Shown: positions 36,215 through 49,784, counted from the first letter of the stretch. The stretch: 64,000 bases of DNA from Leptolyngbyaceae cyanobacterium clean351 (GCA_027451865.1 DAIDHW010000003.1:6891-70890), one strand, 5' to 3'. Program-made: numbers and translations. The notes: generated by a model not told the origin, from the letters alone.

Positions 36215-36551
36215 GGACAGCTCCCCAAAAAGTACCCGGCCCGTCGAGGTGGTTCCTCATTGACATCTTCCCTGACCTGAAGGCCGGAGATTCCTACAGC
36301 GCTCACCGCAGGCACGGCTGCGATAAGTCGCTTCGGTGGGTTCCTCGGCCGAGGGCGCCCTATCTCCAAGGGCGTTACTTGCGGCATGCCCTGCCGTAGG
36401 CCGGCGTGGTTGTTGCCGCCAGATCGGTTATAGCACGCAACAACGAAGCCCGCGCTATTCTTCCCTGCCCTGAACAGCGGGGCTTGGCGTGCACCGGGGT
36501 TAAGTACCCGTTGAATATTAGGTCCTAGGCAAACCTTCCAGGTTCAACATA

Positions 36552-36929
36552 ATGGATCGAGGCTTTGCGAGCTGGGGATTTCTCGATGAACTAAGTGCCA
36601 CTCAAACTCCCTTTGTCATACGGATTAAAAACAACACGAGAACCGAGCTCGGCCATGAGCGCTATCGGGTCGCGTGGTTTTGTGACTTAGAACGTCGCCC
36701 AACCTTCAATCCTGGGCAAGTCATGACTATTAAGGTAGATGATACCCAGGTATACAGCTATCCCTTCCCCCGAATTGGCCAGTTTCAAACCATCAGGTTA
36801 CCCCTAGCTGCCCAGCCCGGCCCCCATCAGAAGATTGAACTTGCCTACCGTCACTCGGCTGCCTCTCCCCCTGACCCCCGCTCCTTGGCGGTCCTATTTG
36901 AGAAATTGAAAGTGACTGCTAGTCATTGA
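36552..36929 (+). CDS. hypothetical protein; N-terminus resembles the DDE-transposase (IS4-like) 'DRGFxS...FVIRxKxN' region, so possibly a transposase remnant
   Basis: The only support is the MDRGFASWGFLDEL...FVIRIKNN motif. The rest of the protein is not transposase-like. Confidence 0.3.
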   Translation: MDRGFASWGFLDELSATQTPFVIRIKNNTRTELGHERYRVAWFCDLERRPTFNPGQVMTIKVDDTQVYSYPFPRIGQFQTIRLPLAAQPGPHQKIELAYRHSAASPPDPRSLAVLFEKLKVTASH

Positions 36930-37017
36930 CCAGGGGATGTTCATCTGGGGAGACTATTCAGGAGCAGACCGAGGAGCCTGGTAGCCTATTGGTTTCTAGG
37001 GCGTGCCGACAGGATTC

Positions 37018-39141
37018 TTACCGGGTAGAAACGTGGTGGCGGGGAATTTCCGAGAGGAACCGAACGGCTATATCCTCGCTAAAATCCATGAAGTGTTGGG
37101 AGTGTTTAGCAGGGATAAGTTTGATCGCGCTTATTCTCTGTAGTCCAGAGGTGTCGCCGACAAAAAGCCTACCTAGGCTGATTGCTGATCCCAGGTAATA
37201 CCTAGTAAACAGGCCATCATTCCCAGTGGGATAAATGAATCTAAAAGGTCCCCTAACGGATCCATCAGCAAGCTTGAACAAGATATATACGTGGTCTGGT
37301 TTGTATAGGATATCCATAAGACCGCCCACCAATGTGGTTCGAATCCCTAGGTCCGTATAGGTGGCATTGCTTGGGACCTTTAACCACTGATGAAAACGGG
37401 TTTTTGTCCTGGCTGTGAGCACTAGTCCTGGTCTGGCGCAGGCAACGCGGCTAAGTACGGTGAGGGGTCCCTTGGCATACCTAGTTCTATAACAGTTTAG
37501 GATTGCCCTAAAGGTTGCGGGCTCATCAAATATCGGATATCTCCAATCAATAGTTTGAAACTTGTATATAATGTCATCGGCACTTGCCCCATCCCATATC
37601 TGCTCGGCATTTAAGTGATCCAGATAGGGTGTGTAGACAGAATAGGATTGTATAACCGGGCTAGCGAGCAATCTCAGATGGAATCCCTGGACTGCCATGA
37701 GGTCCCAAGGAATAATATTTACCGACTTGTGACCGACGGTGCCTTGTATACTGGCATAACTACTGATCTCTTGCCTGAGGGCATTCTGTTGTTTGTGGGC
37801 AAGGACAGACCTTTGTCTTTTTGATGTCAGTAGGGAAACAAAGTTCCTATAATTCATCACCTCATTTACTGAAGAACTCGATGGCCATCCAAGTAAATGA
37901 ATTGACGGCCATAAACTCTTGTGACTCACCACATAATTCGATGGCAGTGTCCCCAGCATGGGGAATATTAACGCCAGCAAATACATTGCCGAGAGGTTGA
38001 TAAGGGCGATTACATAGGATTTCCTGAGGAGTAGCGCTAGGATTACCACTGATATGAGGAGAGCGGTGCTAAAGAAGGTTAAGGCATGGCCACCAAAAAA
38101 TGCTAGATCGTGCCGTGTAAAGCCCTCCTTCCATGCCCAAAACATCATGACCGCTAGAACTATACTTTGCGCTAGTCGTGGCTTGTCTCCTTTTATCGCC
38201 ACTACGATGACAGTGGCGATAAAAAACAAGAGAATAGCCACTGCAACGATGGTTTGCGGAAGATACCCACTAAGGGACATGGCAGGTGTATAGCCGCGGG
38301 CAATTGCCCATGTTCCGCGTAAATACCCAGGTATATCTCCCATGGTCTGTCCCGCAGCAATCCATAGGCCGAGAAAGGCGATGACAAAAGACAGCAGCGG
38401 AATTAGGGATATCCTTCTCCATATCTTAGTGCCGATATACCACCATAGAAGTGGGTATAGGCAAACAACTGCAAGGGCGATCATCAAAGATGTGGACTTG
38501 ATGAGAGAGCCTAAAGCCAGGAGGAATCCAGAGAAAAATAAGGACAAAAAAACTGCCCCGCGCTCGGTAAGGGAGAGCACGAGCAGTAATAATCCCACAA
38601 AGGCCAATCGAGATGCCAGATCAAGCAGAGAGGCGCCTACTACCCACGCCATTATCGCGGGGATGACTATGTAACTAAACCCCCTGCTCGTCGGTAAAAG
38701 CCTAGGAAGTATGAGGAAAAAGGCTAAACCACAGGCTATCCAACTCACCAATTGAGCCAGGGCAGCCATACCCCATAGGAGGTGATCTGAGTAGAAATAC
38801 GGGTTTTCTAGAAAGCCTAGGGGACCATAGGTGAAGAGAATTGACTTTCCCCACTGTAAATGGTGCTCGAAGCCGTAGCCCAACATCCAAGCCCAGGAGG
38901 TATCTAAGATGTCATTAGTTGGAGCAAAAAAATCAACTAGCCGGGGCGTAGTCAATAGGAGTAACACGAACAGTAGGGAAAAAACCACAAGGTTAAATAG
39001 AATACCTGAAGGCTTTCTACTCCTAGGCTCGCGCTCTTGTAACTGAGGTTTTTCCGACATCTGGTGATCCGTTGACGGTGATGGGTGTTTCCCTGACCCT
39101 GAGGATAGCTGCGGTCGTGGGGGCCGCAAATGAGTATACAC
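37018..39141 (-). CDS. large polytopic membrane protein, putative GT-C-type glycosyltransferase / YfhO-like
   Basis: It has about 12 or more TM helices followed by a soluble domain of about 250 aa, and is AT-rich. The start may be the internal MSEKPQ methionine. Confidence 0.45.
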   Translation of the reverse strand: MYTHLRPPRPQLSSGSGKHPSPSTDHQMSEKPQLQEREPRSRKPSGILFNLVVFSLLFVLLLLTTPRLVDFFAPTNDILDTSWAWMLGYGFEHHLQWGKSILFTYGPLGFLENPYFYSDHLLWGMAALAQLVSWIACGLAFFLILPRLLPTSRGFSYIVIPAIMAWVVGASLLDLASRLAFVGLLLLVLSLTERGAVFLSLFFSGFLLALGSLIKSTSLMIALAVVCLYPLLWWYIGTKIWRRISLIPLLSFVIAFLGLWIAAGQTMGDIPGYLRGTWAIARGYTPAMSLSGYLPQTIVAVAILLFFIATVIVVAIKGDKPRLAQSIVLAVMMFWAWKEGFTRHDLAFFGGHALTFFSTALLISVVILALLLRKSYVIALINLSAMYLLALIFPMLGTLPSNYVVSHKSLWPSIHLLGWPSSSSVNEVMNYRNFVSLLTSKRQRSVLAHKQQNALRQEISSYASIQGTVGHKSVNIIPWDLMAVQGFHLRLLASPVIQSYSVYTPYLDHLNAEQIWDGASADDIIYKFQTIDWRYPIFDEPATFRAILNCYRTRYAKGPLTVLSRVACARPGLVLTARTKTRFHQWLKVPSNATYTDLGIRTTLVGGLMDILYKPDHVYILFKLADGSVRGPFRFIYPTGNDGLFTRYYLGSAISLGRLFVGDTSGLQRISAIKLIPAKHSQHFMDFSEDIAVRFLSEIPRHHVSTR

Positions 39142-39226
39142 CAGAGCAGTTGACCTGGTTCCCCCCCGCTAAGTTCAAGCAAAGCCGTCCTCGAAGGATG
39201 GGGTTTCAACCCAATTTCTCGATGAG

Positions 39227-39643
39227 CTACTGGTGGCTAGGGCTTGAGGGGGGTAGGGGGTTCTGGCTAGCTTGTCTGGCCCGCATTGCCGACTTTACCA
39301 GTTTTACTTGGTAGGGGTCAGCATCTTGGCGCCAGACGACTCGATGCCCTTGCAATTGGGCACAGTGGGCTCCTAGACACTTTTCCCAACCCCGGCGGTC
39401 ACTGATTCTACTTAGGTTATCTAACAGTCCCCAATTCTCTTCTTGGCGAGTCAGGTGGGTAAACCTTTCGTAGAGAGGATAGTCAGGCCTTACTAGCGAG
39501 TCCTTGCGGTGCAGCAGCGGGGGATTATCCTCACGGTCGTAGTCTTGGTAATGGACGTGGAGGTCCCGGAGATCAACCTGCATCCTGGTCTGGAGAGCCG
39601 GATGAGGGTCAGAATCAAATTCAGGGTAGAACATCCCGAACAT
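39227..39643 (-). CDS. hypothetical protein (138 aa), divergent from the HTH gene
   Basis: It is an intact ORF with no recognisable motifs. Confidence 0.35.
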   Translation of the reverse strand: MFGMFYPEFDSDPHPALQTRMQVDLRDLHVHYQDYDREDNPPLLHRKDSLVRPDYPLYERFTHLTRQEENWGLLDNLSRISDRRGWEKCLGAHCAQLQGHRVVWRQDADPYQVKLVKSAMRARQASQNPLPPSSPSHQ

Positions 39644-39699
39644 ACCAGTCCTGGGGGTTTGTGGCCTGGAGGATGACTGCCGTTATGTTGGATGAAACC

Positions 39700-39713
39700 A
39701 TAACAGATGTTAT
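39700..39713. promoter_or_regulatory. perfect inverted repeat ATAACA-GA-TGTTAT in the divergent intergenic region; candidate operator for the adjacent XRE-HTH protein
   Basis: It is a 6-2-6 palindrome lying between the divergent genes at 39643 and about 39763. Confidence 0.35.
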
Positions 39714-39762
39714 ACTTGCCAGCAAAAAGCAACTACTATTTTTGATCAGCAACTTTACAACA

Positions 39763-40557
39763 ATGAGTAAGGCCAACGACGCGCTTAGACAAACTATTGA
39801 GAAACATAATATTAGCCAGAGCCAACTCGCAGAGATCATGGGGATAGAAGGCGCAATAGTTTCAAATTGGTATCACAGTCAGGTTGATCCGAGAGCTGAA
39901 ACCGTAGCAGAGATCGTCAGAGCACTCAAGAGGATAGGCACAAAAGTAGCTGAAGACTTTATCAGGTTCTACTTGGATCTTCCTACTCAGCCCGGGCAAG
40001 ATTATCTGGTTTGTATGGCTGGATCTGAACTACCAGCTTCAGAAGTAGTAGATGTATCCACACTATCCGGCCTGTTTACTCAAACCACCAATTCCTATAA
40101 GTATTTATTTTTCATTTCACTATTAGATATTTTGAAGAGACAGAAATTTAACGTGTTATCACCCATTGGCTTTGGGAAAATAGCCATTGAAATACTTGCT
40201 AATACTTGGTATCCAAGCACCTACTGTAAGCTATCCTTTGGAATTTCAGATAGGCTTCCTAAAATGCTTAGCTCTCTAAAGTTAGACATTGGTAAACCGA
40301 TTTTAAAGTTTACTGATACAGATAAGAATTTGCTACGTAAAACTATTGGAAGTCAGAATTTGAGTTCTATAGTCTTTGAACTACTCAGATATGTCCCTTT
40401 CCGGCTCATCATGCCATTTGTTGAAGCAGAGTTAGAAAATATTGAGCGGGGAATTAGGGGAAAAGGTATGAAAGCTGATTATACAGTCCCTAGAATCGCT
40501 ACAGAGTATTTTGATCTCCGCAGCCCCTATATAAATTTAACTCCTCAGTTTATCTAG
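39763..40557 (+). CDS. XRE-family HTH protein with uncharacterised C-terminal domain
   Basis: It has an HTH (ISQSQLAEIMGIEGAIVSNWYH) followed by a domain of about 200 aa with no recognised motifs. The start is placed at the internal MSKAND methionine; the ORF is open from 39661. Confidence 0.5.
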   Translation: MSKANDALRQTIEKHNISQSQLAEIMGIEGAIVSNWYHSQVDPRAETVAEIVRALKRIGTKVAEDFIRFYLDLPTQPGQDYLVCMAGSELPASEVVDVSTLSGLFTQTTNSYKYLFFISLLDILKRQKFNVLSPIGFGKIAIEILANTWYPSTYCKLSFGISDRLPKMLSSLKLDIGKPILKFTDTDKNLLRKTIGSQNLSSIVFELLRYVPFRLIMPFVEAELENIERGIRGKGMKADYTVPRIATEYFDLRSPYINLTPQFI

Positions 40558-40616
40558 AATGTAATGCAATCAGCGTTCATCCAGCCTGGGCCGACTACCT
40601 ACAAAGAAGCTACGGC

Positions 40617-41006
40617 ATGATTCGTGGCTGGGCATCTTGGGAATGGCTTGAGTATATGCAGAAGTGTAACCCCAATACTCCAGCCATTATCAATAAGTTA
40701 TTCCCACCAAATCACCGAGATTCTCTAATAAAACAAACTGAATACTGGAAATATATACTACAACGTTCTGAGTTTTGCTGTATCTATACAAATGAACTGC
40801 TTAATTATGATCAAATTTCACTTGATCACTATTTGCCTTGGTCCCTTGTAGCTCATGACCAATTATGGAACCTTATTTCTACCTCTCCAAGAATTAATTC
40901 ATCGAAGTCAAATAAGCTTCCCCCAGATGGCTCATTTAATAAGTTCGTTGACTTTCAATACTCTGGCTTACAAGTTTCCTACCAGCACATGTCTAAACCA
41001 AAATAG
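40617..41006 (+). CDS. His-Me finger (HNH/DUF1524-like) nuclease, ending at an in-frame TAG followed by 51 further open codons
   Basis: It has the SLDHYLPWS...HDQLWNLIS...NSSKSNK motif (H-N-H-like with a terminal NKxF). The same frame stays open at 41007-41159 and also upstream from 40515. Confidence 0.5.
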   Translation: MIRGWASWEWLEYMQKCNPNTPAIINKLFPPNHRDSLIKQTEYWKYILQRSEFCCIYTNELLNYDQISLDHYLPWSLVAHDQLWNLISTSPRINSSKSNKLPPDGSFNKFVDFQYSGLQVSYQHMSKPK

Positions 41007-41284
41007 GAAAATTATGTCGAGTCTTTTAAGCTAGATTTAGGCATAAGCAGTACGGTAGAGTTATTAAACCCAGACAGTCTCCGAGGCGCCTACCAGAGAG
41101 TTATCCCTCCCTTACGGTCTCTGGCAAGTGGTCAAGGGTTTCGAGTCTGGCAAAAAATCTAAATTTAGACGAAATCAAAGGGCGCTATCAGGTTTCTACA
41201 AGCACCCCAAACCATTCTCTGGCCACATGTAGATATGTATACAAGCCATTAAGCCTACAAGTTTTTATTACTACACGTAAGTAA

Positions 41285-42202
41285 TCATGTTGCCTCCCCC
41301 AACCACCGCCGCAGGAGGGGATTGACCAACTCCGGCGCCTCATCGTGGGGACAGTGGCCCACCCCCGCCAGAGCCACAAACTCCTTAACCGTGGGAACCT
41401 CAGCCAAAACCCGCCCCATCACCACCGGCTCCCAGGGGTCCTGCTCCCCCCAGATCATCCAGGCCGGACAGCGCAACTGGGGCAGCAACTGTTCCGCCAC
41501 CGGCCCCCCTGAGTAGCGCACAAAGGAGAGGAACACATCCACTGCCCCCGGGTCCCGGGCCGGTGCCAACAACAATTCCACTAACTCCTCAGTCACCGCC
41601 TCCGAACGACCGTAGCAGGTATTCAGGATCCGCCGCACCACCTGGGGGCGAGCCAGGCGAGCAAAAAATAATCCCCCCACCGGCCGGAAACCCAAGACCT
41701 GCTGAAATAGGGCTGTAGACCAACGCCGGTACCAGGGCAGACGGGCTCGCTTACTCTCGTGCAACTGGCGCAGGGAGGGATTTAGCAGCACTACTCCCCG
41801 GACCCAAGCCGAACCACTAACCGCCGCCTGCAGGGCCACAATCGCCCCAATCGAATTACCCACTAGGTAGGCCGGCTCACCGATTACCTCCTGACAAAAG
41901 GCAAGTACCTGCTCTCCCCAGGTGCCAAAGTCGTAGGAGACCCTCACCCCTGGCTCGCGGGGTCCGGGTTGGGGCTTAGCCGAACCCCCAAAGCCCAGCA
42001 GGTCCACCGCATAGACCCGGTAGTCCGCCGCCAGGACCGGCAAGTTCTTGCGCCAGTGACCCCGGGAAGCACCGAAACCGTGGATTAGCACCACCGGCAC
42101 TCCCTGGGTACCCCCCTGGTGATAACAAACCGGGAAACCTTGCCAATACCAATGCTGGTCTACAGGGGCAGTCAAGGGGAAATTCAAGGTTAGATACTCC
42201 AT
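41285..42202 (-). CDS. alpha/beta-fold hydrolase
   Basis: It has an HGFGAS oxyanion region and a GNSIG nucleophile elbow. Confidence 0.75.
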   Translation of the reverse strand: MEYLTLNFPLTAPVDQHWYWQGFPVCYHQGGTQGVPVVLIHGFGASRGHWRKNLPVLAADYRVYAVDLLGFGGSAKPQPGPREPGVRVSYDFGTWGEQVLAFCQEVIGEPAYLVGNSIGAIVALQAAVSGSAWVRGVVLLNPSLRQLHESKRARLPWYRRWSTALFQQVLGFRPVGGLFFARLARPQVVRRILNTCYGRSEAVTEELVELLLAPARDPGAVDVFLSFVRYSGGPVAEQLLPQLRCPAWMIWGEQDPWEPVVMGRVLAEVPTVKEFVALAGVGHCPHDEAPELVNPLLRRWLGEAT

Positions 42203-43576: not shown

Positions 43577-46036
43577 ATGATTGGCCAAATTGTGGGCGGG
43601 CGCTATCGGATCCTCTCCTCCCTAGGCGGGGGAAGCTTTGGGCAGACCTATCTCGCCGAGGATATCCATCGTCCGGAATTCCCCCAGTGTGTAGTCAAGC
43701 TCCTCAAGCCGGTAGTTACTAACCCCAGCTTTCTCCCCTTGGCGCGCAACCTATTTCACAAGGAAGCCCAGACCCTAGAGAGATTGGGAACCCACAGTCA
43801 GATCCCCCAGCTACTGGCCTACTTTGAGCAGGAGGAGAACTTCTACCTAGTCCAGGAGTTTGTTGCCGGCCACACCCTGCGCCACGAGCTCCCGCCCGGC
43901 CAGCCCTGGAGCGAAGCCCAAGTGGTCAAACTTCTCAGAGAAGTCCTCGGGGTCTTGGTATTCGTCCACGAGTGCCGTGTGATCCATCGAGACATTAAAC
44001 CTGATAACCTGATCCGTCGCCAAGCAGACCAACGCCTAGTCTTAATTGACTTTGGCGCGGTGAAGGTAATCCAAGGGGGCCCCGGGGCTAACCCCGGCAC
44101 CATTGCCATCGGTACCCCAGGGTACATGCCCCCGGAACAATCCCAAGGCCGCCCCCGCCCCAGCAGCGACCTATACGCCCTAGGGATGGTCGCCCTCCAG
44201 GCCCTCACCGGGGAGGGTCCTAGTCAGTTGCGCTTTGATGAGGCCGGGGAGGTCCTGTGGCCTCCTACCCCGGGGTTCAGTCCCGAGTTGGTGGCCCTGG
44301 TTAAACGGTTGGTGCGCTACCAGCCCCAGGACCGCTATCAAAGTGCCGCCGAGGCCCTAGGGGCTCTAGGGCACCTGAGGCGGCCTCAACTCCTGACCCG
44401 TCTGGGACGACTGCTCCAAACCCCGGTGGGGGAACTGCTCGGGGGACACCGGCCTACCCCTAGCTTCCCGGTTGCTCCCACGATGCCCCGCTCACCTAGG
44501 ACCCGGGTGTTTATCAGTCATCAGCCCCTCGAACTCGAAGTGGGAGTAGCTCAGGAGTTTTATCGGACCCTGGAGGCGGCGGGTTATCAACCCTTCATTA
44601 GTAGTATGTTTGCTACCCTGGCTAAGGACCAGTGGATCGCGGCCCTAGAGCAGTGCGACCACCTGATCCTCTTACTGTCGGCTCCCTCCGCCAATAGTGA
44701 GCTATTGCTCGAGGAGTTGCGCACGGTCCGAGGGGTGCAGGAGCGCCTGCAGCGCCCGCGGATCCTCCCTATCCGCCTGAATTTTCCCCCGGGCTTACCC
44801 CTCAACTACGAGATCCGCAGCTACCTGCAGGGAGTCCAGCAGCGGTTCTGGCGTCATTCAGAGGACACCAAGGGACTCCTAGAAGAAATCCTAGAGGTGT
44901 TAGCAAGTCCTCTTCTTGCTCCGGAGACCCCCACCACCGGTGGCACCCTCTCCACGGTGGTGCCCTGGGAAACTAAGGGGGCAGCCATCCCCCTGCCAGT
45001 GGCGGAACCGGAGATCCCCCAGGGCTACGTGAACTTGGCCTCGGCCTTCTACATCGAGCGCCCCCCCATCGAGAACCAGTGCTACGAGGCCATCCTGCAA
45101 CCCGGAGCCCTGATCCGGATCAAGGCCCCCCGCCAGATGGGCAAAACCTCCCTGATGGCTCGGATCCTCCACCAGGCTACCCAGGCCGGCTGTCGGAGTG
45201 TTTCCCTGAGCCTGCAGCTAGCGGACGGGAAGGTATTTACGGACTTAGATTGGTTTTTGCGCTGGTTGTGTGCCAGCCTGGGGCGGCGGCTGCAGCTAAC
45301 CAACCAGATTGACCAGTACTGGGATGGGGTGTTCGGTAGTAAGTACAATTGCACCGCCTACTTTGAGGAGTACATCCTGCCCCAGCTGCAGGTCCCCCTG
45401 GCCCTGGGGCTTGATGAGGTGGACCGAGTGTTTGCCTACCCAGAGATCGCTAGTGACTTTTTTGGTCTCCTGCGGGCCTGGCATGAGGAGGCCAAGAACC
45501 AGGAACTCTGGCAACGCCTGCGCCTAGTGGTGGTCCACGCCACGGAGGTATATATTCCCCTAGATACTAACCAGTCCCCCTTCAACGTCGGCTTACCCCT
45601 AGACCTACCCGAGTTTAACGCCGCCCAGGTCCAGGAGTTAGCCAAGCTCCACGGCCTAGTGTGGAGCTTGGACCAGGTGCAAGCCCTGATGGACCTGGTG
45701 GGGGGTCACCCTTACCTGGTCCGTCTAGCCCTGTACCACCTGGCCCAGCAGAATACCACCCTGCAGCGTCTGCTACAGGAGTCCCCCACAGAGGCCGGCA
45801 TGTACAGGGACCACCTGCACGGTCACCTCTGGAACCTCCAACAGCATCCCGAGCTCTTGCGGGCCTTTCAGCGGGTGGTCATGGACCCAGCACCGGTTAT
45901 CCTCGACGCCCTACCTCTATTCAAGCTACACAGCCTAGGACTAGTGCACTTACAGGGCAACCGGGTCAAACCCCGCTGCCATCTGTACCGTCAGTACTTT
46001 CAGCAGATTTTCAAGGCCACAGAGGCCGGGGAGTGA
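43577..46036 (+). CDS. Ser/Thr protein kinase - TIR-like - AAA-like/STAND NTPase fusion protein
   Basis: The kinase part has GGGSFG, a VKLL lysine, HRDIKPDN, DFG and GTPGYMPPE. The TIR-like block is RVFISHQ...LILLLSAPSANSELLLEEL. The NTPase part has a Walker A motif (APRQMGKTSL) in a C-terminal AAA-like domain. Confidence 0.75.
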   Translation: MIGQIVGGRYRILSSLGGGSFGQTYLAEDIHRPEFPQCVVKLLKPVVTNPSFLPLARNLFHKEAQTLERLGTHSQIPQLLAYFEQEENFYLVQEFVAGHTLRHELPPGQPWSEAQVVKLLREVLGVLVFVHECRVIHRDIKPDNLIRRQADQRLVLIDFGAVKVIQGGPGANPGTIAIGTPGYMPPEQSQGRPRPSSDLYALGMVALQALTGEGPSQLRFDEAGEVLWPPTPGFSPELVALVKRLVRYQPQDRYQSAAEALGALGHLRRPQLLTRLGRLLQTPVGELLGGHRPTPSFPVAPTMPRSPRTRVFISHQPLELEVGVAQEFYRTLEAAGYQPFISSMFATLAKDQWIAALEQCDHLILLLSAPSANSELLLEELRTVRGVQERLQRPRILPIRLNFPPGLPLNYEIRSYLQGVQQRFWRHSEDTKGLLEEILEVLASPLLAPETPTTGGTLSTVVPWETKGAAIPLPVAEPEIPQGYVNLASAFYIERPPIENQCYEAILQPGALIRIKAPRQMGKTSLMARILHQATQAGCRSVSLSLQLADGKVFTDLDWFLRWLCASLGRRLQLTNQIDQYWDGVFGSKYNCTAYFEEYILPQLQVPLALGLDEVDRVFAYPEIASDFFGLLRAWHEEAKNQELWQRLRLVVVHATEVYIPLDTNQSPFNVGLPLDLPEFNAAQVQELAKLHGLVWSLDQVQALMDLVGGHPYLVRLALYHLAQQNTTLQRLLQESPTEAGMYRDHLHGHLWNLQQHPELLRAFQRVVMDPAPVILDALPLFKLHSLGLVHLQGNRVKPRCHLYRQYFQQIFKATEAGE

Positions 46037-46894: not shown

Positions 46895-47075
46895 GTCTTG
46901 GGTCCATCCCCTAATTCAGTATTTCTATACTACTAAACTAACCCGTCCACCGCATCCTTGGGAATTTCGGAGCATCTGCGGGTCGGGCCCAGGAGACTGG
47001 GCAGCTAGCCCCCATGGCAACCACAAAATTAACCCTGGGACATCAGCAGAAATTATTAAGGCTATTGATTCCTAA

Positions 47076-47131
47076 TTATGAATTGTGGCCAGGGTGGGTA
47101 TTCTTATGAATTGTGGCCAGGGTGGGTATTC
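47076..47131. repeat. perfect 28-bp tandem duplication (TTATGAATTGTGGCCAGGGTGGGTATTC x2)
   Basis: The two copies, 47076-47103 and 47104-47131, are identical. The repeat lies at the 5' end of the GT28-C gene. Confidence 0.9.
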
Positions 47132-47184
47132 TAAGGTTATATCTGTGCTTAATTAGACTTAACTTTTCCTATGGGATCCCCCTT

Positions 47185-47625
47185 GTGATTTTCATCACCC
47201 TCAGTGGCAACAAGTTACCTTTTAACCGGGTAGGTGCCTGGATTATTGCCCTGATCCGCCAGGGGTTTCTTAACCCTGAAGAGGAGGAAATAGCCTTCTG
47301 CGCTCCCCCTCCCACTATCCCCCCAGAGGGAGTTTTAGTGTATCAAAGCTTCGACGAGGGCCAACAGGAAAAGATGATCACTAAAGCCCGGATCGTTATC
47401 ACCGATTGTCACCCGCCCCTGATGACTCTAGCTACAAGACTAGCAAAGACAGTAATTTTCATCCCCCGGGCCGAGCAACTCCAGGAGAACCACGACCAGC
47501 ACCAGGTGATGACTGCCCTGGAACTAATGAAACAAAATGCCAAGGTGGCCTGGTCCCCAGGGGATCTCGTCCGCATCCTGGCCATCCAGGGAGAAACCCC
47601 CATCAGCAAAGTTATCTACCTATAG
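47185..47625 (+). CDS. glycosyltransferase family 28 C-terminal-domain protein (PssE/Alg13-like)
   Basis: It has an IFITLSG N-terminus (compare VFVTVGT of Alg13) and a GT28_C-like sequence. A GTG start is proposed; the track ORF begins at 47113 inside the repeat. Confidence 0.5.
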   Translation: MIFITLSGNKLPFNRVGAWIIALIRQGFLNPEEEEIAFCAPPPTIPPEGVLVYQSFDEGQQEKMITKARIVITDCHPPLMTLATRLAKTVIFIPRAEQLQENHDQHQVMTALELMKQNAKVAWSPGDLVRILAIQGETPISKVIYL

Positions 47626-47685
47626 AAAGTCCCAGCTGCGCGCTTTTCGCCACCCTTACCCATACTGCTTAACCTTGGCGGGCTC

Positions 47686-49784
<2,099 letters not shown>

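What the first reader, a model, noticed from the sequence alone, without database searches (positions are those of the whole stretch)
36552..41284. Compositionally foreign (AT-rich) island inserted between pyrB and an alpha/beta-hydrolase gene
Flanking chromosome is roughly 60-65% GC with strong GC3 bias. This ~4.7-kb stretch drops to about 40-47% GC by eye and uses AT-rich codons throughout. It encodes only non-core functions: a transposase-like remnant, a GT-C-like membrane protein, a small orphan protein, and an HTH protein plus HNH nuclease. No integrase or tRNA target was found. I could not find flanking direct repeats by eye. The profile fits an older horizontally acquired island carrying cell-surface and defence cargo, and it is the best place in the window for an undescribed system.
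Basis: seen in the sequence. Interest (0 to 1): 0.7.

Follow-up and report, generated by a model that had tools for sequence, protein, structure and literature searches.

The report
Decayed foreign gene islet beside pyrB
The AT-rich 4.7-kb stretch is real foreign DNA, but it is mostly a graveyard of broken genes (a transposase stump, a methyltransferase stump and a dead nuclease gene from DNA-sulfur-modification defence islands) plus one intact orphan membrane glycosyltransferase, not a working new system.

Summary
The compositional observation is confirmed. GC falls from about 0.60 to 0.35-0.55 between about 36.5 and 41.3 kb. GC3 of every island ORF lies 3-9 SD below 37 flanking ORFs.

The stretch is a mosaic of at least three compositional blocks, and four of its five coding pieces are broken:
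- An IS4 transposase stump fused in frame to a beta-sandwich fragment.
- An intact 680-aa GT-C-fold glycosyltransferase. Its named relatives are all proteobacterial (best 54% identity). There it sits in a conserved UbiA/DprE1/DprE2/GtrA (lipid-linked pentofuranose) operon that is absent from this window.
- The last ~100 codons of a "DNA phosphorothioation-associated methyltransferase" (TIGR04096).
It belongs to a ~465-aa XRE-HTH / SBD-like / HNH family. It is killed by a 1-nt deletion and a TGG-to-TAG nonsense mutation.

That family usually lies next to Ssp/Dnd/BREX-4 phosphorothioation genes in cyanobacteria (6 of 8 contexts). On Synechocystis plasmid pSYSM it lies near the same methyltransferase family. 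No PT genes are in the window.

No relative is close enough for a synteny test. This is an ordinary decayed islet of low-to-moderate interest.

The parts
36500..41284 (.). Whole low-GC mosaic islet between the pyrB start (36214) and the hydrolase stop (41285)
   Evidence: GC profiles. GC3 z-scores of -3 to -9 against 37 flanking ORFs.
36549..36707 (+). Internal stump of an IS4-family DDE transposase, about 53 of about 322 codons. It forms the first ~50 codons of the 125-aa ORF 36552-36929.
   Evidence: NCBIfam NF033592 positions 182-229 of 332, E 6e-5. Pfam DDE_Tnp_1 E 0.008. tblastn of the 322-aa transposase P0251, residues 164-216, 45% identity. No second IS fragment in the islet.
36705..36929 (+). 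Fragment of about 72 codons fused in frame to the IS stump. It resembles a C-terminal beta-sandwich (Ig-like) repeat of larger proteins.
   Evidence: An exhaustive phmmer search matched query residues 50-122 to the C-terminal parts of P0252 (813 aa, 614-677), P0259 and P0262. P0252 carries weak PMT_2 and Big_3_5 Pfam hits and two copies of the repeat. This assignment is weak.
37018..39060 (-). Intact gene for a 680-aa GT-C-fold membrane glycosyltransferase (identical to database protein P0001). It is an orphan here.
39227..39643 (-). 3' stump of a 'DNA phosphorothioation-associated putative methyltransferase' (TIGR04096). Homology spans 39275-39634. The 5' ~375 codons are missing.
   Evidence: TIGR04096 positions 377-478 of 478, E 5e-35, 121 bits against a cutoff of 150. 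Cyanobacterial homologues (up to 72% identity) continue N-terminally with conserved sequence that the window lacks. tblastn finds nothing upstream in any frame. 49% identical to the C-terminus of the pSYSM methyltransferase.
39763..41159 (+). Pseudogene of a ~465-aa XRE-HTH / SBD-like winged-helix / HNH_4 nuclease. Frame 1 runs 39763-40527 and frame 3 runs 40521-41156, with the stop at 41157-41159.
   Evidence: Three-frame translation. tblastn of intact homologues P0085, P0086 and P0101 splits at residue ~254 between two frames and reads through the stop. The 466-aa reconstruction covers 99-100% of 465-aa homologues, best 64% identity. Pfam HNH_4 E 1e-10 and HTH_3/HTH_26.
40519..40527 (+). Frameshift site. 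cgc-ag-ccc is inferred to come from cgc-aag-ccc (loss of one A in the Lys254 codon).
   Evidence: Sequence. Family consensus ...K-P-L-Y-x-F..., with K254 nearly invariant and P255, Y257 and F259 invariant. The frame switch was located by tblastn.
41004..41006 (+). In-frame TAG at the position of the family's invariant Trp415 (TGG to TAG).
   Evidence: Sequence. Window reads K-P-K-*-E-N-Y-V-E against family W-x-x-x-V-E with W415 invariant. tblastn aligns through the stop.

Best explanation
The stretch is a small, largely decayed patch of horizontally acquired DNA lodged in the pyrB-hydrolase intergenic space. It was assembled or eroded in several steps and is not one functional island.

Shown:
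- It has at least three compositional blocks.
- It holds an IS4 transposase stump fused to an unrelated fragment.
- It holds one intact GT-C-fold glycosyltransferase gene. Its nearest named relatives are proteobacterial. There the gene is part of a conserved lipid-linked pentofuranose (DprE1/DprE2-type, probably arabinofuranose) glycosylation operon.
- It holds the last fifth of a phosphorothioation-associated methyltransferase gene.
- It holds a single HTH/HNH nuclease gene inactivated by a 1-nt deletion and a nonsense codon.

Inferred:
- The methyltransferase stump and the nuclease pseudogene are relics of the kind of Ssp/Dnd-type phosphorothioation defence neighbourhood seen intact on Synechocystis plasmid pSYSM and in other cyanobacteria.
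- The arrival of the very AT-rich nuclease block, or a deletion next to it, cut off the 5' four-fifths of the methyltransferase gene.
- Without its modification partner the nuclease was useless or harmful and was lost by mutation.
- When intact, the nuclease probably used its middle SBD-like winged-helix domain to read the phosphorothioate status of DNA, its Cas9-type HNH domain to cut, and its C-protein-like XRE domain for sequence binding or autoregulation.
- The GT-C enzyme, if expressed, would transfer a sugar from a polyprenyl-phosphate donor to a periplasmic acceptor, using the conserved Asp50/Asp53 after the first transmembrane helix. Its usual donor-synthesis genes are not nearby, so its activity in this host is doubtful.
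For: - Composition.
- IS4 stump and chimeric ORF.
- GT-C context: the operon is conserved in 3 of 3 independent proteobacterial contexts (L081 Acidithiobacillus ferrivorans, L146, L148). It matches the three-component pentofuranose pathway of PMC11127046.
- Methyltransferase stump.
- Pseudogene.
- PT-locus context of the HNH family: PAPS reductase/DndC, DUF4007 (SspB), BrxC-like (SspC), cysteine desulfurase, DndD or BrxL in L083, L084, L086, L150, L152 and L153. Component names follow PMC12839542.
- pSYSM carries the HNH family gene, DUF4007, cysteine desulfurase and a TIGR04096-type methyltransferase within 12 kb. The window's stump is 49% identical to that methyltransferase.
- Absence of dnd/ssp and UbiA/DprE genes from the window.
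Against: - No close relative is available, so insertion relative to an empty site is not demonstrated.
- No integrase, tRNA target or flanking repeats mark how the DNA arrived.
- Only 64 kb of the genome was searched. PT-modification genes or the pentofuranose donor pathway could exist elsewhere, which would change the 'orphan' and 'relic' readings.
- The methyltransferase stump (GC3 0.59) and the nuclease block (GC3 0.37) differ so much in composition that they probably did not arrive together. Their joint origin from one PT island is therefore an inference from co-occurrence elsewhere.
- Two of eight HNH-family contexts showed no PT genes (L155, pCENA543b; L154, only partly visible).
- The frameshift alone could be a sequencing error, although the independent nonsense codon argues against that.
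Confidence: 0.8

Rival explanations
1. This is a working, previously undescribed defence or cell-surface island. The HTH protein, HNH nuclease, small protein and membrane protein would act together.
For: The genes are adjacent, non-core and compositionally foreign. The HNH catalytic motif D-H...N...N is still intact in the sequence. The source annotation calls separate ORFs of 290, 138, 125 and 680 aa.
Against: The 'HTH' and 'HNH' ORFs are two frames of one gene. Its intact homologues are single 465-aa proteins, and the window copy also has a stop at an invariant Trp. The 138-aa ORF is the last fifth of a 478-position methyltransferase model. The pieces have three different compositions. Their homologues never co-occur with the GT-C family in the contexts inspected. 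There are no PADLOC hits beyond generic HTH/HNH.
Confidence: 0.04
2. This is an assembly artefact: a chimeric contig in which foreign reads from another community member were joined between two host segments.
For: GC steps are very sharp at both edges. The four island proteins are singletons seen on one NCBI contig of 163,968 bp only. No related genome is available to confirm the arrangement.
Against: It would need two chimeric joins within 4.8 kb plus internal joins between three compositional blocks. The internal junctions show biological signatures: an in-frame IS stump and a gene truncated exactly where homology stops. Both flanks continue as normal host genes.
Confidence: 0.05
3. The GT-C gene is the selected cargo and is functional. 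The islet persists because this enzyme decorates a cell-surface glycan or protein, using a polyprenyl-phosphate sugar made by genes elsewhere in the genome. The rest is hitch-hiking debris. This refines the best explanation rather than excluding it.
For: It is the only long intact ORF in the islet. All family-invariant residues are retained and the model is confident. GT-C enzymes of glucosylation or pentofuranose systems can be encoded apart from their donor genes (general knowledge; PMC11127046). A sugar-transferase gene (STAS + Bac_transf) lies 8.6 kb away.
Against: In 3 of 3 homologue contexts the gene is tightly operonic with UbiA/DprE1/DprE2/GtrA. None of these is in the window. Its GC3 of 0.50 is unameliorated. 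A private 21-aa low-confidence insert lies in the protein. There are no expression data.
Confidence: 0.35
4. This is a native, vertically inherited AT-rich region and not horizontal transfer.
For: No mobility gene is intact and no integration signature exists.
Against: GC3 is 3-9 SD below the flanking genes. The GT-C's named relatives are proteobacterial. The HNH family sits on cyanobacterial plasmids and beside integrases. An IS stump is present.
Confidence: 0.03

Closest known systems
SBD-HNH phosphorothioate-dependent type IV restriction endonucleases (ScoMcrA, SprMcrA, Hga; PDB 5ZMO, 5ZMM, 8H0L)
   Different: There is no sequence-level match to any solved SBD and no SRA/SAD domain. There is an extra N-terminal XRE/C-protein-like HTH. 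The HNH is of the Cas9-like HNH_4 type. There is an additional C-terminal helical domain. The window's copy is a pseudogene.
SspE / SspFGH / DndFGH restriction partners of phosphorothioation systems
   Same: These are nuclease-containing genes that sit beside SspABCD- or DndACD-type modification genes.
   Different: No DUF262/DUF1524, no DndFGH-type domains and no PADLOC hit to these families. Functional coupling to PT is untested.
TIGR04096 'DNA phosphorothioation-associated putative methyltransferase'
   Same: The 138-aa ORF matches the C-terminal 102 positions at E 5e-35. It is 49% identical to the pSYSM member.
   Different: Only about 21% of the protein remains. The score is below the family cutoff (121 against 150 bits). 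No methyltransferase catalytic region is present.
GT-C pentofuranosyltransferases of three-component systems (GT136 ORF12 of Citrobacter youngae; mycobacterial AftA/Emb; Pseudomonas TfpW)
   Same: GT-C fold. A conserved acidic motif follows the first transmembrane helix. There is a beta-rich periplasmic C-terminal domain. Homologues are operonic with a UbiA-family synthase (+HAD), DprE1/DprE2-like epimerase pair and a small GtrA flippase-like protein. This is the logic described in PMC11127046.
   Different: There is no detectable sequence similarity to any Pfam GT-C family or solved GT-C. The associated flippase candidate is GtrA, not MATE. Extra epimerase and amine-oxidase-like genes are present. 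In this window the gene stands alone without any partner.
IS4-family insertion sequences
   Same: The DDE_Tnp_1 / NF033592 match includes the D-R-G-F motif region.
   Different: Only about 50 of about 320 codons survive, with no terminal inverted repeats. The fragment is fused in frame to unrelated sequence.

Membership tests
Classical genomic island | Atypical base composition and codon usage relative to the flanks | tested here: met
   GC 0.35-0.55 against 0.60. GC3 z-scores of -3.2 to -9.4.
Classical genomic island | Integrase, tRNA or other defined target, and flanking direct repeats | tested here: not met
   No tRNA within 25 kb. No integrase domain. Only one 16-nt two-copy repeat, inside the islet, judged to be chance.
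Classical genomic island | Absent from the syntenic site in close relatives | not testable with these tools
   The closest pyrB is 76-79% identical and the closest hydrolase 58%. Gene order is not conserved at that distance.
GT-C fold glycosyltransferase | Polytopic N-terminal membrane domain (7-13 TM helices) with structural similarity to solved GT-C enzymes | tested here: met
GT-C fold glycosyltransferase | Conserved acidic residue(s) in the first extracytoplasmic loop | tested here: met
   D50 and D53 are invariant in the 8-sequence alignment, and D53 is at least 90% conserved in 50 sequences. They lie between helix 18-36 and helix 51-65. The periplasmic location is inferred from GT-C topology.
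GT-C fold glycosyltransferase | Uses a polyprenyl-phosphate-linked sugar donor | not testable with these tools
   This is suggested only by the operon context of homologues.
Three-component pentofuranose glycosylation system (PMC11127046) | Polyprenyl-phosphoribose synthase, flippase and GT-C encoded together (with DprE1/E2 for arabinofuranose) | tested here: not met
   Met in the homologue loci L081, L146 and L148. tblastn of those UbiA, DprE1-like, DprE2-like, epimerase, amine-oxidase and GtrA proteins finds nothing in the window.
SBD-HNH PT-dependent type IV restriction endonuclease | HNH nuclease domain with catalytic residues | tested here: met
   PF13395 HNH_4 E 1e-10. The D-H...W-N-L...N motif is retained.
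SBD-HNH PT-dependent type IV restriction endonuclease | Sulfur-binding domain with a P165/H116/R117(K)-type cavity | tested here: inconclusive
SBD-HNH PT-dependent type IV restriction endonuclease | Intact open reading frame | tested here: not met
   One frameshift at ~40522 and a TAG at 41004-41006.
Ssp / Dnd / BREX type 4 phosphorothioation system | Modification genes present (SspABCD, DndACDE, or PAPS reductase + DUF4007 + BrxC) | tested here: not met
   tblastn with DndC, DndD, DndA-like, DUF4007, BrxC-like and PAPS-reductase proteins from L083, L084 and L086 finds nothing in the 64-kb window. The rest of the genome was not available.
TIGR04096 dnd-associated methyltransferase | Full-length match above the curated cutoff (150 bits) | tested here: not met
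   121 bits, model positions 377-478 of 478 only. The N-terminal conserved sequence of homologues is absent.
IS4 family insertion sequence | Complete DDE transposase and terminal inverted repeats | tested here: not met
   Only positions 182-229 of 332 of NF033592 match. No inverted repeats. No further fragment.

The most novel reading that the evidence does not exclude
The dead nuclease may be a relic of an uncharacterised effector class. This is a ~465-aa XRE-HTH / SBD-like winged-helix / Cas9-type HNH protein with at least 793 database homologues at E <= 1e-3, mostly cyanobacterial and often plasmid-borne. It recurrently sits inside Ssp, Dnd and BREX-4 phosphorothioation neighbourhoods. It could be the missing PT-sensing restriction partner of cyanobacterial PT systems, and Synechocystis PCC 6803 pSYSM carries a testable copy. 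Separately, the orphan GT-C may belong to a sequence-novel family of lipid-linked pentofuranosyl transferases not yet in Pfam.
Probability: 0.35. Interest if true: 0.45.

Novelty: new member of a known kind. Interest (0 to 1): 0.22.

Why it matters
For this window, the result mainly removes a false lead. The AT-rich islet is debris plus one orphan enzyme, not a new system.

Two by-products have some value. First, the pseudogene points to a large, unnamed cyanobacterial nuclease family tied to phosphorothioation loci. An intact copy lies beside the matching methyltransferase on a plasmid of the model strain Synechocystis PCC 6803, where its role could be tested directly. Second, the membrane protein identifies a GT-C family that Pfam and NCBIfam do not detect. 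Its proteobacterial operons look like arabinofuranose-type surface glycosylation outside the Actinobacteria. The cyanobacterial copy documents cross-phylum transfer of the transferase without its donor pathway.

Tried and rejected
- Synteny with relatives. The search for related loci with pyrB in genome contigs and with the hydrolase in metagenome contigs gave only distant relatives. tblastn of the window's neighbours showed no conserved order, so there was no result either way.
- Exact look-ups of pyrB, the hydrolase, the aminotransferase and P0001 found no contig on record. The source genome could not be retrieved. Cluster look-up gave only 'NCBI, contig 163,968 bp', with no name.
- An Rfam scan of 35-43 kb at E <= 1 found nothing.
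- Promoter and terminator scans were not above shuffled expectation in any informative way.
- The composite-transposon idea was rejected. A 16-nt direct repeat brackets the GT-C gene at 36578 and 39214. Translation and tblastn with full IS4 transposases show no second IS fragment at 39.2 kb.
- PADLOC gave only generic HTH and Cas9-HNH/PtuB-level hits.
- DNA and protein searches of phage genomes found nothing for the islet DNA. For the GT-C they found only a 24%-identity partial hit in a Leptospira phage. A phage origin is not supported.
- I considered that the 138-aa ORF might be a stand-alone small protein, because many database homologues are short. Alignment shows that those are partial or truncated entries sharing N-terminal conserved sequence the window lacks.

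Full report
**1. Observation**

The compositional shift is real and its coordinates are accurate.
- Flanking 400-bp windows run at GC 0.58-0.66. Inside 36.4-41.3 kb, GC is 0.35-0.56.
- No other 1-kb bin of the 64-kb window falls below 0.508.
- In 100-bp steps the edges are abrupt: 0.65 to 0.46 at 36,500, and 0.41 to 0.66 at 41,300.
- Thirty-seven long ORFs outside the stretch have GC3 of 0.706 +/- 0.036, with a minimum of 0.622.

| Island piece | GC3 | z |
|---|---|---|
| Membrane gene | 0.499 | -5.8 |
| Nuclease, two frames | 0.37-0.385 | about -9 |
| 138-aa ORF | 0.59 | -3.2 |
| 125-aa ORF | 0.53 | -4.9 |

The stretch is not uniform. It contains at least three blocks of different composition: about 0.47 GC, about 0.55 GC and about 0.38 GC.

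The window is cyanobacterial, judged from the relatives of pyrB.

**2. Anatomy, left to right**

(a) 36552-36929 (+), 125 aa: a chimera.
- Residues 1-55 are an internal piece of an IS4 DDE transposase. They match NF033592 positions 182-229 of 332. They are 45% identical to residues 164-216 of the 322-aa transposase P0251.
- Residues about 50-122 match the C-terminal beta-sandwich repeats of unrelated larger proteins. One of these, P0252, has weak PMT_2 and Big_3_5 hits.
- This is an accidental in-frame fusion of two stumps.

(b) 37018-39060 (-), 680 aa: the only intact gene.
- It is identical to database protein P0001. The ORF listing GTG start at 39141 is an upstream extension.
- It has no Pfam, NCBIfam or PDB sequence match.
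- It belongs to a small family of 84 hits. The next best is 54% identical. All named members are proteobacterial: Acidithiobacillus, Steroidobacteraceae.
- It spans the whole conserved core of the family, with a private 21-residue insert.
- The AlphaFold model is confident (pLDDT 90.2, pTM 0.91). It has about 13 long helices followed by a beta-rich domain.
- Asp50 and Asp53, just after the first helix, are conserved. This is where GT-C enzymes carry their catalytic acid.
- In three independent proteobacterial contexts the gene is operonic with a UbiA-family enzyme (with a weak or faint HAD Pfam hit in two of the three), a FAD_binding_4 protein, a short-chain dehydrogenase, an epimerase, an amine-oxidase-like flavoprotein and GtrA.
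- UbiA/HAD, FAD_binding_4 and the SDR correspond to the phosphoribose synthase/phosphatase and the DprE1/DprE2 pair that make lipid-linked arabinofuranose. The arrangement matches the 'three-component' pentofuranose pathway of Kelly et al. (PMC11127046).
- None of these partners is in the window.

(c) 39227-39643 (-), 138 aa: a methyltransferase stump.
- It matches the last 102 positions (377-478 of 478) of TIGR04096, 'DNA phosphorothioation-associated putative methyltransferase'. The E-value is 5e-35. The score is below the full-length cutoff.
- Cyanobacterial homologues (up to 72% identity in Trichocoleus, Leptolyngbya, Nodosilinea) continue upstream with conserved sequence that is missing here.
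- No frame upstream of 39634 carries it.
- The break coincides with the start of the most AT-rich block.

(d) 39763-41159 (+): one pseudogene.
- Intact homologues are single ~465-aa proteins. tblastn maps residues 1-255 to frame 1 (39763-40527) and residues 254-465 to frame 3 (40521-41156), through a stop codon.
- Lesion 1 is the loss of one A in the codon for the nearly invariant Lys254 (cgc-ag-ccc at 40519-40527).
- Lesion 2 is TGG to TAG at the invariant Trp415 (41004-41006).
- Two independent lesions make a sequencing error unlikely.
- The HNH motif itself is still intact, so the decay is probably recent.

**3. What the nuclease family is**

- At least 793 homologues were found, most of the named ones cyanobacterial.
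- Domains by Pfam: XRE HTH and HNH_4, the Cas9-type HNH.
- The AlphaFold model of P0085 has pLDDT 81.6.
- The family has an invariant Y112-K113 motif and a nearly invariant Y150-P151 motif. These recall the H116-R117(K) and Y164-P165 cavity residues of ScoMcrA (PMC6224610).
- A sequence profile search finds no SBD. Generic winged-helix proteins score almost as well. The SBD assignment is therefore suggestive only.

Genomic context supports a link with phosphorothioation.

| Locus | Source | PT-related neighbours |
|---|---|---|
| L083 | metagenome contig | PAPS reductase, DUF4007, BrxL |
| L084 | Nodosilinea | DUF4007, BrxC-like, cysteine desulfurase |
| L086 | Euhalothece | DndC and DndD above NCBIfam cutoffs |
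| L150 | Tolypothrix | DUF4007, BrxC-like, cysteine desulfurase |
| L152 | metagenome chromosome | cysteine desulfurase |
| L153 | Synechocystis 6803 plasmid pSYSM | DUF4007, cysteine desulfurase, TIGR04096-type methyltransferase within 12 kb |

- The window's methyltransferase stump is 49% identical to the pSYSM methyltransferase.
- DUF4007 = SspB, BrxC = SspC and PAPS reductase = SspD, according to PMC12839542.
- Two plasmid contexts (pCAL6303.03, pCENA543b) show integrases, toxin-antitoxin and other defence genes but no visible PT genes. The link is frequent, not obligatory.
- Nucleases of the wHTH+SAD+HNH type in Dnd loci are already described (PMC10853773). This XRE/SBD-like/HNH_4 architecture was not mentioned in the passages retrieved from that paper.

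**4. Most likely history and mechanism**

Shown: a mosaic composition, three truncated or fused stumps, one pseudogene, one intact orphan gene, and no partner genes within 64 kb.

Inferred:
- The pyrB-hydrolase intergenic space has accepted foreign DNA more than once.
- A PT-island-type methyltransferase gene was present. The arrival of the AT-rich nuclease block, or a deletion next to it, removed its 5' four-fifths.
- The nuclease lacked a cognate modification system and was then inactivated.
- IS4 activity truncated other genes on the left side and was itself deleted down to a stump.
- The GT-C gene was transferred from a proteobacterial-type pentofuranose operon without its donor pathway.
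- If the nuclease family works like SBD-HNH enzymes, the intact protein would read the PT status of DNA through the middle domain and nick or cut with the HNH domain. The C-protein-like HTH would provide sequence binding or autoregulation.

How the DNA entered is unknown. There is no integrase, tRNA or repeat.

**5. Limits**

- No genome or metagenome contig is close enough to test for an empty site.
- The source genome could not be retrieved.
- PT or DprE-type genes might exist elsewhere in the genome.
- Assembly chimerism cannot be excluded without reads, but would need several coincident joins.

**6. Verdict**

The stretch is not a coherent or functional island and not a new system.

Novelty: a new member of a known kind, namely a decayed genomic islet whose genes belong to recognisable classes.

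Interest is low to moderate. It rests mainly on the pointer to an unstudied PT-associated nuclease family, with a tractable copy in Synechocystis 6803, and on a GT-C family that domain databases do not detect.

Noticed in passing
window 43577-46036 (+): An 819-aa protein fuses a Ser/Thr protein kinase, a TIR_2 domain and an AAA_35 ATPase domain (Pfam E 7e-34, 1e-8 and 2e-153). It has host-like composition and lies 2.3 kb right of the islet. It may be a STAND-like immune or signalling protein.
   Followed up: partly
window ~46900-47650: A second, smaller low-GC patch (0.47-0.51). It contains a 170-aa ORF (47113-47625) with no Pfam hit, just upstream of a STAS + Bac_transf sugar transferase (47686-48672).
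   Followed up: partly
L153 (Synechocystis PCC 6803 plasmid pSYSM, NC_005229.1 17.9-30.2 kb): An intact member of the HTH/SBD-like/HNH family lies within 12 kb of several related genes. These are DUF4007 (SspB-like), a cysteine desulfurase, an AAA + DUF4276 pair and a 690-aa 'DNA phosphorothioation-associated putative methyltransferase'. The methyltransferase's C-terminal domain appears twice. This is a tractable model locus for the family.
   Followed up: partly
L150 13978-15804 and L152 11774-13567: A ~600-aa HATPase_c_3 protein recurs close to the HNH family gene in two unrelated cyanobacterial chromosomes. It may be another conserved partner.
   Followed up: no
L148 16445-18064 and L149 8858-10477: A second, distant paralogue of the GT-C family (26-32% identity in patches) lies at the other end of the same UbiA/DprE-type operon. 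This suggests two transferases share one donor pathway.
   Followed up: no
L146 1354-4373 and L148 4916-7947: In two proteobacterial loci the GT-C/pentofuranose operon directly follows a PilS-like sensor kinase (6TM_PilS) and a sigma-54 response regulator (PilR-like). This recalls pilin arabinosylation by TfpW in Pseudomonas.
   Followed up: no
window 36578-36593 and 39214-39229: A 16-nt direct repeat, ATTTCTCGATGA(A/G)CTA, brackets the GT-C gene. The left copy lies inside the IS4 stump. No second IS fragment was found at the right copy, so it was judged to be chance.
   Followed up: yes
H13/H14 (Leptospira noguchii plasmid NZ_CP091950.1 and Leptospira phage vB_LnoZ_CZ214-LE1, KF114877.1): The periplasmic C-terminal domain of the GT-C protein (residues 440-663) has a distant match (24% identity) in a Leptospira phage/plasmid hypothetical protein.
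   Followed up: no
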